Positions 9,001-15,000 of a stretch of 49,030 bases of DNA are shown piece after piece (positions within the stretch are counted from its first letter, which is position 1; each line of letters starts with the position of its first letter). The DNA is from an archaeon GW2011_AR18 (GTDB lineage: Archaea > Nanobdellota > Nanobdellia > SCGC-AAA011-G17 > GW2011-AR18): NCBI GenBank assembly GCA_000806155.1, contig JWKX01000005.1, positions 1-49,030 of the forward strand, read 5' to 3'. Position numbers: made by a program.

Positions 9001-12000
9001 TATTCTCACGTATAGCAAAGTAACCTGCTTCAGTACATATAGCTCTTACTTCAGCTCCATTGAAACCTTCAATCTTAGAAACTATCTCATCATAATCAAC
9101 ATCATTAAGTTTCATCCTCTTGCTGTGAATCTTTAGTATCTGCATCCTTGCTTTTTCATCTGGCAAAGGAATCTCTATTAATCTATCAAATCTTCCAGGA
9201 CGCAATAAAGCAGGATCAAGAACATCAAATCTGTTAGTAGCACCAATAATCTTAACGTTATCTAAACTTTTAAAACCATCAATCTCAGTCAATAATTGCA
9301 TAAATGTCCTCTGGACTTCACGCTCACCAGAAACTCCAGCATCAAGACGTTCAGCTGCAAGAGCATCAATCTCATCAATGAAAATAATACTAGGAGCTTT
9401 TTCCCTAGCAAGAGAGAAAATTTCCCTAACTAACTTAGCACCTTCACCAATGAATTTCTGGACAAGTTCAGAGGCAACAATCTCAATAAAAGTAGCCTTA
9501 GCACTAGTAGCAACAGCTTTAGCTAATAAAGTCTTACCAGTACCAGGAGGACCATATAATAAAATGCCTTTAGGAGGTTCTATACCAATATTCTTGAAAA
9601 TCTCAGGTTTAAGCAATGGCAATTCAACAACCTCTTTAATTTCATTAATCTGCTCTTCCAAGCCGCCAACATCACTCCAATTAATATTAGGTTTTTCAAC
9701 AATAACAAAGTCTTCAATATCAAAAGTCCTAGATTTTTCCAACTTCTGAACAACTGTAAGGGATCTTTGTTCAACTAATACAGTGTCGCCAGTTTCAACT
9801 TTTATATTACCTGAGATATTAACTAAAAACTGAGATCCATTAGGAACTTTGATCATAACTTTATTATCTAAAACTTTACGAGCTTCACAAACCAATAAAG
9901 GAAGCTCCTTGAATTTGCTAAGTTCTGTCTTAAGATAACTTAGACTACTCTTAAGCAACTGATTTTCCTCATGGATAGATGTAGGAGCTATATCCTTCTC
10001 TAAAACCTGTTCTTTCTTCTTAGATAAAATCCCCATACAATAAAAATAGTCTAAATATTAATAAAACTTACTAAAAATGAATAATTAAGCTTTTAAATCT
10101 TTAGTAATTGTTTATTTTATGCAAAGTGAATTACTAGTATTAAAGGATGATGAAGCATTCATACCAACAGATGATAGAGGAAATGGATTAATATTACAAA
10201 CACATGAATTACAAATTAATGGAAGAGCATTAGTTTGTGTTAATCAGTATCAAGCAATAAGAACAGCACAAAAACTTGGATGGGATGTGATGTCATCTGC
10301 TGAATATAATTATACTTACTCTTATGCAAGAGAACATCAAGAAGACGAGAGATTAAGAAGATATTATGAAAGCTTAACTTCAAAAATGAAATTTGCAAGA
10401 TTTAATAAAACACAAGTTCACAATCTAAACGGTAATACTCCATTAGTTGTTAATGTTTCTAAAGTTCATGATGAATTTGATTTAGCGATGGGTTATGAAA
10501 AAGAGATTATACCTGTAAGTTGGCTTCCTAAAAAAGATGGATATATTCAGGAATTTGATGAGAGAACAGGATTACCAAAAAGTGTTGGACAAACACCAGT
10601 TCCGGAATTAAGTAATAGTTACTTTTATATTGATCCTAAAATAAATACTCTTGCTGTCATTCGTAACAGGGGCTCCGGGTTGGACCTTAATCTTGACTGG
10701 ACTCCTGCCAATTTTAACGATGTGCTCGGGGTAAGCGTCGCAAAAAAATTTACAGCAGAAAGATTAGAAGAAAAATTCTAGTTATATAATATTATAACCT
10801 ATTTTTACAAAAAATCTAGAAAACTTACTAAAAAACTGAAGGATTTACGGAAAAAACACCAAGAGCTATTTAAATAATTTAGAATATATAACTATATGGA
10901 AGATACAACATTACTAAAGATAAGCTTTATAGTTGCTGCAATAGGTGTAGGCATACTGATAATACTTGGGAATGTAATCACACTAGAGGAGAGCAACATA
11001 GCTAAACTTGATAAAAAGTCACTAGACAAGAATGTAAAGATAAAAGGATATATACAGAATATACAAACATTTGGGAGTATAAAGATAATAGAAATAGAAG
11101 ACAATACAGGAAAGATAAGTGTTGTAGTATTTGATAACAAATTCTCTGTAAAAAAAGGGAGCATAGCAGAAGTTGATGGAAAATTAACAATAAGAGAGGG
11201 CAAATTACAAGTCAATGCTGAAACAATAAGAACTGTACAAGTATAACACCATCTATAAATTAATATAAAAATAACATTACTATTCCATAACAGATAATTA
11301 TTTAAATCCAAGAGGACTAACCTTAATAAATACGAGAAAAAAATGGTTGACTATATAAAAAGAGATGTTTCGAAGATGGTTGAAGAATATTCAGCTAAGA
11401 CAGATGATAATCCTTTCAGTAAAATTATACCAGCATTAATGAAAAAAGGCTTGGAAAATGTTAACTTATCAATGTTTAGCGATGATAAGAAAAAAGAATT
11501 ACTAAATGCAGCAGCTGAAGAATATTTAAAAAGAAATCAATTAGTTGATGCTATAAGAGTATTCAAGATGACTGGAAACAGGGTAAGATTAATTTCTATA
11601 GGTGATGATCATGTTAAATTAGGATTATTCGGAGCAGCAATAGAAGCATACAAATTAGCTGAAGATAAAGAAAAATTACTAAAAGCTGGAGAGAAATGCC
11701 TAGATGAGGGACACTTAGCTGAAGCAATAGCAGCATTCAAAGCAGCTGGAGACCAGGATAAATTAAACAAGGTAGGAGATTATTGTCTGGAAAAAGGAAA
11801 ATTAGAATTTGCAATAGAAGTATTCAGTGCATTAGATAATAAAGCAAAATTATTAAGCATAGGAGAAAAATGCTTTAGTCAAAAAGATTACATACATGCA
11901 GCAAGAGCATATGAGCTTGGAGAAGACTTAGAGAAGTTAAACAGAGTTGGGGAAGAGTTCATGAAAATAGGATTACTAGCAAATGCATTAAGAGCATACC

Positions 12001-15000
12001 AAGCAGCAAAGAATGAGATGATGGTACAATTCATCAAAGAGAATTTTGCTGAAAAAGACTTGATAACAAGAGTGTACGTCTAAGTAATGGAAGACTACAC
12101 ATTATTTCTTAAATCTTTATTAAAAAAAGATATGAAAGATATAGAGACAGAAGCATTATCTGAAAATCTAAAAAAAGAATTTGATAAGACGGCAGAGAAT
12201 ATGCTGTTAAAAGAATTCTATGAAGAGGCAATAAAAACATTATATTTAACAAAGAATTTTGAGAGATTAAAAAAATTAGGACATGAATTAATTACTAAAA
12301 ACAAATTAGGACATGCATATAATTGCTTTAAATATGCAAATGATAAACAGGGAATGGATAAAGTAGGAGAGGCATATATAAGAAATGCAGAAGTAGATAA
12401 TGCATATTCAGCATATAAATTTTCAGAAAATACAGAAATGATATCATTCTTAGAAGAGAATTTTATACGATAACTGAAAGTTAAGCTTTTAAAACTTTAT
12501 TATTTACAAAAATCCTGAAAACTTTGCAGAAAAATCTAAAATAGATTATTAAATTCTAAAAACAAATAATTAGATGATACTAGAAATATTATTAGCAATA
12601 ATAATCGGATGCATCTTAGGAACAATAACAGGAATAACGCCCGGAGTACATATAAACTTAGTATCAGCATTAATATTTTCTATATCAACTTTTTTATTAA
12701 ATTATACAGACGTAATCTTTTTAGTAATCACTATAACAAGCATGGCAATAACACATACATTCTTAGATATATTACCAAGCACATTCTTAGGAGCGCCAAA
12801 CAGCGAGAATGCAATAGCGGCACTACCTGCACATAGATTATTATTAGAAGGAAAAGCAGGAGAGGCAATAAGATTAGCAACAATAGGAAGTTATTTCGGA
12901 TTATTAGTCTCAGTAATATTAGCACCAGTAGTATATTATATTGTAACATTGAGCTATCCAGTAATAAAGAATTATATAGCAGCATTATTAATCTTCATAA
13001 GCCTCTATATAATCTGGACATCAAAGAATAAATTATCAGCAGCAATATTATTCACAATAACAGGAGTATTAGGGGTAGTTGTATTCAATATAAAAACATT
13101 AGATCAACCATTATTCCCATTATTATCAGGATTATTCGGGACAAGTTCATTGATGATAAGCCTGAAAACAGAAACAAAAATACCAATACAAGAAAAGATA
13201 ACAAAAATAATAATAGATAAAATAACATTAACTAAAAATACAGTAGTCAGTCTAATCTCATCTGTATTAACAAGCTTCTTACCTGGATTAACAAATTCTC
13301 ATACAACATTAGTGGCATCAATAATATCTAAAACAAAAGATGAGAGAGAATATATTATACTAAACAATTCAATAAATACAATATCAATGGTATTAAGTTT
13401 CATAGCATTATTCAGTATAGATAAAGCAAGGAATGGAGCTGTTGTCGTAATATCAAATTTTGTTGATAAATTCACATTAATATATTTAATTTTATTATTA
13501 AGTTGTTCATTAGTTGCAGCATTCATTGCAGTAATATTAGTACTGAAGTTATCTACAGTTTTTTCAAAGATAATAACAAAAATAAATTATTCAAAATTAT
13601 GCATAACGATAATTTTATTCTTGTTAATACTCGTAATAATAATGACAGGATATGTTGGAGTAATAGTATTAGTAACTGCAACATTCATAGGGATAATGCC
13701 TAAATTATTAGAGATAGAGAATACACATCTAATGGGGTGTCTGATATTACCTGTTGTACTTTATTTTATATTGTGAAATCTAAGTCATAGTAATCTTTAT
13801 AAATACCCCCAAAATACATTTTAATACTTACTGATGTATATAGCCGTTGACTTCTAGTAGGTAAATAGTGAAAGCCTTAGAAATAAGGAGATTAGAGAGT
13901 ATTAAAGCAAAAGCTTTATAATAGGTATAAAAGTCACAAAGAAAAAACACAATGGCAAACGTAAGAAGACCAAGAAAAGGAAGCCTGCAGTTCTGGCCGA
14001 AGAGAAAAGCTAAAAGACAGTATGCAAAAATCAAATCATGGTCTAAGGATAAAAACGTAAGTTTGCTAGGTTTTGCAGGATATAAAGCTGGAATGACACA
14101 TGTTACAGTAAAAGATACAAGACCAGGATCACACACAAAAGGTGATGAGGTAATGTGGCCTGTAACAGTCCTTGAATGTCCACCATTAAAAATTTATTCT
14201 ATAAGATTCTACAAAAAAGACAATTACGGGTTGAAACTAATGACAGAAGTAGTAAATCCAAAGCAAGACAAGTATTTAGGAAGAAAAGTAGATCTAGTAA
14301 AAAAACAAAAATCAACACTAACAGGTATAGAACCAACAATTGCAGAATATGCAGATGTAAGAGTAAATGTCTATACACAACCATACAAATCAGGATTAGG
14401 AAAAAAGACACCGGAATTATTTGAGTTAGCAATAGGCGGAAATGATACTAAAGCAAAATTAGATTATGCAAAAACATTACTAGACAAAGAAATAAAAGTT
14501 TCAGATGTATTAAAGAGCGGAATAAAAGTAGATGTACATTCAGTAACAAAAGGAAAAGGATTCCAGGGAGTAATCAAGAGAAGCGGAGCTGAATTAAAAC
14601 AGCACAAAGCAGAAAAGAAAAGAAGAGGAGTAGTATACGGACCATTAAATCCAAGAAAAATCTTATGGGGAGTACCAGCCTGCGGAAGAATGGGATATAA
14701 TCTAAGGACAGAATATAATAAAGATCTAATATTAATTGATAGCAACCCAACAAAAGTAAATCCAAAAGGGGGATTCATGCATTATGGATTGGTAAGAAGT
14801 GATTATGTATTATTAAAAGGATCAGTACCTGGATCAAGAAACAGATTAGTTACGTTCACAAAGAACATAAGAGCAGTAAAACATTTAGGAAATCAGATAG
14901 AATTGACATACGTAAGTACGGAGAGCAAACAATGAAAATAATATTTCCAAGTATTTACCAGAGGATCATACAATGAAAGCAGATGTTTATACATTAGAGG

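What a model noticed while it worked through the whole genome (the two positions that open the first line are those of the whole stretch)
11343..12473. Clathrin/COPI-type 29-residue alpha-solenoid pair
g00313 and its short paralog g00314 are Pfam-less helical-hairpin repeat proteins with a 29-residue period that align to clathrin heavy chain without gaps but need 5-residue gaps to fit TPRs. They may be stand-alone protocoatomer-type solenoids that scaffold or bend the membrane of these small cells. A coat-type solenoid conserved in DPANN would extend this building block beyond eukaryotes, Asgard archaea and PVC bacteria.
Evidence so far: Pfam Clathrin repeat in 10 of 12 family members (best E 7e-9), with weak TPR_IF140 and TPR_COPA_B hits. 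Profile against PDB: clathrin heavy chain positions 81-212 to residues 37-168 (E 0.0016), IFT121, WDR19. AlphaFold model pLDDT 87; best natural structural matches are IFT140 (Z 10.3, rmsd 12.9) and the Gemin5 dimerisation domain (Z 8.9). Present in 48 of 151 phylum genomes at 38-71% identity for full-length matches, 98% in G011.
(Added by a program. Inside this text positions count along the whole contig: contig position 1 is position 1 of the stretch shown here. "Call 12" and the like, gene names such as g00115 and contig names such as C1 are that model's own, and its searches are not shown. The text may have been shortened before it was handed on; [...] marks where a part breaks off. The agent that wrote the report below was given it as the finding of a first reader that could run no searches.)

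Follow-up and report, generated by a model that had tools for sequence, protein, structure and literature searches.

The report
Short-TPR adaptor beside duplicate archaeal ftsZ2
These two archaeal genes encode soluble helical-repeat proteins with the 29-residue repeat also seen in clathrin and cilia-transport proteins, but many relatives sit next to a duplicate ftsZ2 gene and one is predicted to bind a coiled-coil neighbour, so they likely act as cell-division adaptors rather than as a membrane coat.

Summary
ORF A (246 aa, 6 repeats) and ORF B (128 aa, 3 repeats) have a 29-residue period. The unit is a TPR lacking 5 residues, and its best natural PDB matches are clathrin and IFT-A. The coat reading is weak: no beta-propeller, no membrane anchor, TM-scores of 0.35 or less, and the same repeat in many unrelated proteins, one from a named bacterium.

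Genomic context points elsewhere. A is in 86 of 301 Nanoarchaeia genomes. Outside the window's order, ftsZ2 lies directly upstream in 14 of 39 loci (13 of 24 families), and a Pfam-less coiled-coil gene (cc1) follows in 30 of 39. All 14 genomes checked with ftsZ2 near A hold a second ftsZ2. A model of one ortholog with cc1 scored 0.62 (controls 0.00). Its central residue is invariant in cc1-adjacent orthologs (30/30) and mostly lost (4/22) in the window's order, where cc1 was not found.

Best reading: a lineage-specific short-TPR adaptor of an accessory FtsZ2 module. Binding to FtsZ is untested. In the window the pair lies away from ftsZ2, so its role there is inferred from orthologs.

The parts
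11343..12083 (+). Gene A: 246 aa; flexible N-tail, conserved N-cap, six 29-residue TPR-derived repeats, conserved C-cap
11409..11492 (+). N-cap of A (residues 23-50; invariant P30, G36, M44, F45); residues 38-42 correspond to part of the predicted cc1 site of the ortholog
11493..12014 (+). Six repeats (residues 51-224) with TPR positions L4, G8, G15, A20, Y/F24, A27, five residues shorter than a TPR
11556..11582 (+). Loop after repeat 1 (residues 72-80): core of the predicted cc1 site in the ortholog; here K75/M76 instead of V-I/L
12015..12047 (+). C-cap of A (M227, F230, N234, F235 invariant); outside the predicted cc1 interface, candidate site for a second partner
12087..12473 (+). Gene B: 128 aa short paralog, same caps, three repeats; next to A only in the window's own family
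10896..11246 (+). Upstream OB-fold protein with N-terminal hydrophobic segment (context; conserved in own family)
   Evidence: PF01336 E 1.7e-10
12574..13776 (+). Downstream TctA-family membrane protein (context; conserved in own family)
   Evidence: PF01970 E 1e-53

Best explanation
A and B are soluble solenoids of 29-residue, TPR-derived repeats that likely work as adaptors of an accessory FtsZ2 cell-division module, A being predicted to grip a coiled-coil partner (cc1) in relatives. Shown: repeat, caps, no membrane segment, and the gene order ftsZ2 > A > cc1 across many Woesearchaeota families. Predicted: the N-cap and the short loops after repeats 1 and 2 bind the N-terminal helix of cc1. 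Inferred: the conserved C-terminal end binds a second partner, most likely the co-encoded duplicate FtsZ2, while the aromatic C-terminal motif of cc1 holds the complex at the membrane or on another envelope protein. In the window's lineage cc1 was not found, the site is altered and B takes the downstream position, so the window pair would be a rewired version that keeps the caps.
For: Context: ftsZ within 500 nt upstream on the same strand in 14 of 39 loci outside the own order (13 of 24 families). ftsZ, sepF or a PRC-barrel gene within about 5 kb in 32 of 60 loci (18 of 34 families), against 4.3% of positions in G000. sepF lies 2 nt after A in L123. cc1 follows A in 30 of 39 loci. All 14 genomes with a full ftsZ2 near A hold another ftsZ2 (65-81% identical); the copy near A keeps GGGTGTG in 14 of 14. 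Three or more FtsZ matches in 36 of 48 A-positive vs 30 of 194 A-negative genomes outside the own order. Complex of the G035 ortholog with cc1: score 0.62, best of 3 controls 0.00; the mark was reached by 116 of 157 solved and 2 of 215 mismatched pairs (roughly valid here, own alignments); runs agree in at least 80% of contacts; partner pLDDT at least 61. The cc1 helix in the interface is the one that I had found, before the result, to differ between A-adjacent and other cc1. Interface residue L82 is L in 30 of 30 cc1-adjacent orthologs and 4 of 22 own-order orthologs, and is one of only 4 positions with that pattern.
Against: No direct test of A with FtsZ was run. In G000, ftsZ2 is on another contig and cc1 was not found; neighbours in the own family are PAN, an OB-fold and TctA. 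28 of 60 loci have no division gene nearby. A is missing from 215 of 301 genomes, all of which have FtsZ. cc1 in A-negative genomes has no ftsZ or sepF nearby (0 of 20). The ftsZ2 copies near A do not form one supported clade and show no clear diagnostic residue. PRC-barrel genes may have other house-keeping roles (PMC10120694), and 12 of the 32 loci rest on them. Kin are not independent, FtsZ 'matches' include fragments, and the L82 contrast is mostly between two clades. Residues 1-21 of A were cut from the complex.
Confidence: 0.5

Rival explanations
1. A is a short-TPR adaptor for cc1 in a role unrelated to division (for example envelope or surface-protein assembly), and ftsZ2 adjacency is only inherited gene order.
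For: cc1 is far commoner than A (188 of 242 genomes outside the own order). Without A it lies near large Ig-like surface proteins, RuBisCO or methyltransferases and not near ftsZ (0 of 20). OB-fold/TctA genes flank A in the own family and cc1 in G230.
Against: ftsZ2 is A's neighbour in more families than any gene but cc1; non-adjacent ftsZ2 copies have no such constant neighbour; A presence tracks extra FtsZ copies.
Confidence: 0.3
2. A and B are stand-alone coat-type scaffolds that self-assemble through their conserved caps (head-to-tail, perhaps A with 6 plus B with 3 repeats closing a 9-repeat ring) and shape membrane.
For: Top natural PDB hits are clathrin, IFT144, IFT140, IFT121, IFT122 and beta'-COP. 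Caps are kept in members with 2, 3 and 6 repeats. The model's local curvature fits subunits of designed toroids (tcTRP9 variants, rmsd 1.9-2.4 A over 88-100 residues). Coat-type solenoids dimerise (PMC6954437).
Against: No WD40 in 5 of 5 genomes; propellers are the membrane-facing parts of COPI and IFT-A (10.1101/2022.08.09.503213). No membrane segment. Whole-chain rmsd to natural coat solenoids is 7-17 A, TM 0.35 or less. The repeat is common in unrelated proteins. Non-coat proteins (Gemin5, AND-1) score alike. B is detected in only part of the A-positive genomes.
Confidence: 0.12
3. In the window's family the pair serves the neighbouring genes instead (PAN proteasome ATPase, OB-fold membrane protein, TctA-like transporter), as an ordinary substrate adaptor.
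For: The order PAN / OB-fold / A / (B) / TctA is kept in about 20 loci of the own family; the cc1 site is altered there.
Against: That order is confined to one family; PAN is divergently transcribed; 35 positions, caps included, are conserved across both orders, which suggests one shared ancestral partner.
Confidence: 0.08

Closest known systems
Canonical 34-residue TPR (Pfam TPR_1/TPR_2; designed CTPR)
   Same: Signature positions G8 (93%), G15 (68%), A20 (95%), Y/F24 (97%), A27 (45%); best PDB sequence hits overall (E 2e-10); TPR_2 in 33 of 35 members.
   Different: Each repeat lacks 5 residues at the end of helix B; tighter curvature (rmsd 12-14 A to CTPR8); the predicted site uses the N-cap and inter-repeat loops.
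Protocoatomer solenoids: clathrin heavy-chain repeat, IFT140/144/121/122, alpha/beta'-COP
   Same: 29-residue register with equal-length matches (clathrin 135 vs 135 residues; WDR19 58 vs 58, E 2.4e-6); local fit to an IFT-A chain rmsd 2.5 A over 72 residues.
   Different: No N-terminal propeller, only 3-6 repeats, own caps, poor whole-chain superposition, no coat partners found.
Archaeal FtsZ accessory proteins SepF and CdpB (PRC barrel)
   Same: Small soluble proteins tied to FtsZ1/FtsZ2 division; both genes flank A in some lineages.
   Different: Unrelated folds; SepF and CdpB are widespread and tested (PMC8178401, PMC10120694), whereas A is patchy, lineage-restricted and untested.
Gemin5 / AND-1 TPR-like modules
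   Same: Similar solenoid used as an interaction module, not as a coat (Gemin5 Z 9.1, AND-1 Z 7.2-7.3; PMC6954437).
   Different: Those are domains behind WD40 propellers in eukaryotic proteins; self-dimerisation of A was not tested.

Membership tests
TPR (34-residue) | Consensus small/large pattern (positions 4, 7, 8, 11, 15, 20, 24, 27; numbering recalled, register seen against designed CTPR) | tested here: met
TPR (34-residue) | 34-residue period | tested here: not met
   period 29, z about 10; 95 of 98 repeat spacings are 29 in capped members
TPR (34-residue) | Pfam gathering score | tested here: not met
   A: TPR_2 22 bits vs 27; B no hit. Some orthologs carry precomputed TPR_2
Protocoatomer coat protein | Alpha-solenoid of short helical hairpins in coat register | tested here: met
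Protocoatomer coat protein | Beta-propeller fused N-terminally or as a partner | tested here: not met
   no WD40 (PF00400) in 5 of 5 genomes, 90-100% complete; none fused among longer homologs (weak search); other propeller types not searched. PMC9727805 allows solenoid-only subunits, but inside a propeller-bearing complex
Protocoatomer coat protein | Structural match above the noise for helical repeats | tested here: inconclusive
   best natural Z 10.3 (rmsd 13.2), tied with true TPR SPY 9.4-9.8; under the Z 13 caution line
Protocoatomer coat protein | Pfam Clathrin gathering score | tested here: not met
   27.2 vs 29.6 bits for A; some orthologs carry PF00637
Protocoatomer coat protein | Solenoid-solenoid assembly into a lattice on membrane | not tested
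   the one complex job went to A + cc1; needs experiment
Protocoatomer coat protein | Common descent with eukaryotic coat repeats | not testable with these tools
   shared period removes gap penalties, so scores cannot separate descent from convergence
FtsZ accessory (divisome) protein | Conserved linkage to division genes | tested here: met
   in relatives; not in the window's own genome
FtsZ accessory (divisome) protein | Present wherever FtsZ is | tested here: not met
   A in 86 of 301, FtsZ in 301 of 301: accessory at most
FtsZ accessory (divisome) protein | Binds FtsZ or localises to the ring | not tested
   no model or experiment

The most novel reading that the evidence does not exclude
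Woesearchaeota carry a second FtsZ2 machine built around a coat-type solenoid: A scaffolds a duplicate FtsZ2 and a membrane-reaching coiled-coil protein to remodel membrane (division, budding or host contact), a prokaryotic use of the same 29-residue repeat from which clathrin, COPI and IFT-A solenoids descend.
Probability: 0.2. Interest if true: 0.85.

Novelty: new variant of a known kind. Interest (0 to 1): 0.58.

Why it matters
Few partners of archaeal FtsZ are known (PMC8178401), and I found none described for Woesearchaeota in my searches. This gives a concrete three-gene candidate (duplicate ftsZ2, solenoid A, coiled-coil cc1) with a residue-level predicted interface that can be tested in vitro. 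It also shows that the 29-residue coat-type repeat is an ordinary prokaryotic building block, which warns against reading such hits as coats while leaving them as possible raw material for protocoatomers.

Tried and rejected
Fusion with a propeller: the search of longer proteins gave one hit, P0014, DNA polymerase DP2 joined to the last repeats of A, most likely a chimera. The cc1 N-terminal hairpin as a leftover repeat of A: it aligns to A's last repeat, but at HHalign probability 2% and HMM E 0.016-0.9; kept only as a hint. A distinct 'FtsZ2b' clade: not resolved, no diagnostic column. Fold of cc1: no Foldseek match with E <= 0.001. cc1 or its helix motif in G000: only weak candidates (C6:55804-56094, E 0.009). 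The other coiled-coil neighbour (c24, own order) did not match cc1 profiles. Single-sequence search of A against PDB: nothing under E 0.08. NCBIfam: no hit near a cut-off for A or B. Promoter scan: 12 sites vs 11.3 expected, and the scan is for bacterial promoters. Taxa of uncapped repeat proteins: 1 of 30 looked up carried an organism name. Kinship of records titled Methanosarcinales or Binatia was not given. Earlier scan notes: nothing in 5 look-ups. A-B, A-A and A-FtsZ2 complexes were not modelled.
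Full report
The observation. The window holds ORF A (11343-12083, 246 aa) and, 3 nt later, ORF B (12087-12473, 128 aa). Self-similarity peaks at lag 29 (A z=10.1, B z=4.8, 300 shuffles), and B matches A at 25-26% identity. Related records are titled Nanoarchaeota or Woesearchaeota, the closest at 98% identity. A has a flexible N-tail (pLDDT under 50 for residues 1-21), an N-cap, six repeats and a C-cap; mean pLDDT 87.3, pTM 0.72. Short paralogs keep both caps with 3 or 2 repeats and occur in both orders, but lie next to A only in the window's own family. 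The highest 19-residue hydropathy is 0.84 for A and -0.03 for B, so there is no membrane segment.

What the repeat is. Over 6 repeats in 35 orthologs the consensus is L4 96%, G8 93%, G15 68%, A20 95%, Y/F24 97%, A27 45%. These are TPR positions (numbering recalled), and the alignment to designed TPRs shows a 5-residue gap in every repeat. Pfam TPR_2 matches 33 of 35 members and Clathrin 31 of 35 at E <= 0.01; A is under both cut-offs. Designed TPRs score best in PDB (E 2e-10). Among natural chains clathrin leads for A (E 1.7e-4; equal lengths with the 68-sequence profile) and WDR19/IFT144 for B (E 2.4e-6, 58 vs 58 residues), ahead of true TPRs such as MamA (E 0.003-0.004). Structure adds little: Foldseek TM-scores by query are 0.19-0.35, and IFT140 (Z 10.3, rmsd 13.2) ties with the true TPR protein SPY (Z 9.4-9.8) below designed toroids.

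Why not a coat. WD40 was not found in 5 of 5 genomes tested. In COPI and IFT-A the propellers face the membrane (10.1101/2022.08.09.503213, passages seen); PMC9727805 (passages) defines coatomers by solenoids with propellers and reported no archaeal coatomer as of 2022; PMC13734099 (abstract, section 9) warns that repeats converge. The repeat is not special to this lineage: the profile hits 700 representatives, and of the best 150, 83 score below my cap thresholds; 26 of those have period 29, 20 period 32, 1 period 33, 23 a weak period and 13 are short (some probably B-type). One is from a Thermoanaerobaculia bacterium, and Atlas look-alikes include Binatota, Acidobacteriota and Myxococcota clusters at 0.87-0.90, leads only. 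Descent versus convergence stays open.

Distribution and context. Full-length A is in 86 of 301 genomes, one copy each: 38 of 59 in the window's order and 48 of 242 outside. I fetched about 5 kb each side for 60 of these 86, about one per genus, plus the best 80 of 180 named loci (the sets overlap, so counts below use the 60). Outside the own order, ftsZ lies within 500 nt upstream on the same strand in 14 of 39 loci (13 of 24 families) and a Pfam-less coiled-coil gene, cc1, follows in 30 of 39. ftsZ, sepF or a PRC barrel is near in 32 of 60 loci (17, 3 and 12), in 18 of 34 families; 4.3% of G000 lies that near one of these genes. 28 loci have none, the own family among them. The adjacent FtsZ is FtsZ2: the other G000 paralog precedes SecE-, Spt5- and L11-like ORFs (names recognised from sequence, no call), the context that PMC8178401 (passages) gives for ftsZ1, and scores 382 vs 632 bits. 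All 14 genomes with a full ftsZ2 near A hold a second ftsZ2, and the near copy has the longer branch in 12 of 14. Three or more FtsZ matches occur in 36 of 48 A-positive and 30 of 194 A-negative genomes outside the own order; 19 of 29 vs 25 of 189 without family f18. These are kin, and matches include fragments. The FtsZ tree is poorly resolved. The A tree mostly follows families, with some misplaced members.

The partner. cc1 is in 188 of 242 genomes outside the own order; 3 own-order hits are marginal and G000 has none. It has a long helix, a low-confidence linker and a conserved aromatic C-terminal motif. In A-negative genomes it carries an extra N-terminal hairpin (14 of 14 independent cases; 19 of 20 in the set the profile was built from); next to A only 9 of 30 do, all f18. 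Its N-terminal helix scores a median 28.6 bits in 70 A-adjacent copies (the training set, so circular) and at most 5.9 in 39 others. The G035 ortholog (residues 22-243) with its cc1 scored 0.62, 0.63 and 0.62, best of 3 controls 0.00; 116 of 157 solved and 2 of 215 mismatched pairs reach the mark, roughly valid with my alignments; runs agree in at least 80% of contacts, partner pLDDT at least 61. This supports binding and does not show it. The interface joins cc1 residues 6-25 to A 44-48, 78-86 and 110-113 (window numbering 38-42, 72-80, 104-107). L82 is L in 30 of 30 cc1-adjacent orthologs, 4 of 22 in the own order and 4 of 9 others; the window has M76. Only 4 positions show that contrast, while 35, including the C-cap, are conserved in both groups. 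Against a division role, cc1 without A has no ftsZ or sepF nearby (0 of 20).

Mechanism and limits. Most likely A is an adaptor: its N-terminal edge holds cc1 (predicted), its C-terminal end a second, more universal partner (inferred; FtsZ2 by gene order), and the cc1 tail reaches the membrane or envelope (inferred from its aromatic content). For the window's own pair this is borrowed from orthologs: ftsZ2 is on contig C16, cc1 was not found (genome 90% complete) and B sits where cc1 sits elsewhere. Whether A binds B, itself or FtsZ2 is open.

Literature. Nine searches showed no paper on this family or cassette; I saw listings only, apart from the papers named. PMC10120694 (passages) notes that PRC genes are rarely near ftsZ. 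PMC6954437 (passages) covers Gemin5; PMC11188069 (passages) held nothing relevant. The synteny figure of PMC8178401 (Supplementary Fig. 13) was not found in the supplement text and may show this neighbour; bioRxiv supplements were closed. The tallies include unpublished genomes G243 and G244 (G243 as one of the 188 cc1-positive and one of the 30 A-negative genomes with three FtsZ; G244 in denominators); no conclusion depends on them.

Verdict. Real feature, TPR-derived repeat in coat register, not a coat by the tests run; a new variant of the TPR-adaptor kind with a testable link to duplicated FtsZ2. Interest 0.58.

Noticed in passing
P0108 (844 aa), P0155 (1023 aa); Proteins with a signal-peptide-like N-terminus, 29-residue solenoid, WD40 propeller and more solenoid: closer to a coat-like domain mix than the window's genes; source organism unnamed.
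   Followed up: partly
L171-L190, L316-L335 (cc1 family): Pfam-less coiled-coil protein with N-terminal hairpin and conserved aromatic C-terminal motif in 188 of 242 genomes outside the window's order; often upstream of large Ig-like surface proteins or RuBisCO. A stand-alone hairpin-like gene follows it in L176:4768-4992.
   Followed up: partly
ftsZ2 duplication (sometimes triplication) is common in Nanoarchaeia: 66 of 242 genomes outside the own order have three or more FtsZ matches; G115 has an extra long-branch FtsZ (L254).
   Followed up: partly
L078:5622-5960 and relatives; G000 C7:4068-4397: Double zinc-ribbon gene travels with the cassette, before ftsZ2 or after cc1 (11 of 60 loci, 9 families); recalls the zinc-ribbon regulator near haloarchaeal ftsZ2 (recalled, untested).
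   Followed up: no
L140:5724-5972, L049: B-box zinc-finger gene between A and cc1 in family f18 and before A in f12.
   Followed up: no
L049:4412-4807: A second coiled-coil family (c24) directly after A and before sepF in own-order families f6, f11, f12; no match to cc1 or Pfam.
   Followed up: partly
G000 C6:55804-56094: Small protein with a helix, disordered linker and amphipathic C-terminal end; weak match to cc1 (E 0.009), possible remote counterpart.
   Followed up: no
window 10896-11246 and 12574-13776; L179: Membrane-anchored OB-fold plus TctA-like gene pair flanks A/B here and lies head-to-head with cc1 in G230.
   Followed up: partly
P0014: DNA polymerase DP2 fused to the last repeats of A; probably an assembly chimera of neighbouring genes.
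   Followed up: no
L060, L088, L096, L101 and others: Records titled Methanosarcinales or Binatia carry Woesearchaeota-type A loci with the same gene order; titles may be wrong.
   Followed up: partly
window 5770-7989: Hef-like helicase and ERCC4-like nuclease parts encoded as two ORFs (503 and 220 aa; names recognised from sequence); one ORF of about 735 aa in some relatives (L042, L044).
   Followed up: no
window 10119-10781: 220-aa ORF without Pfam match inserted between PAN and the OB-fold gene; that slot holds different genes or none in relatives.
   Followed up: no
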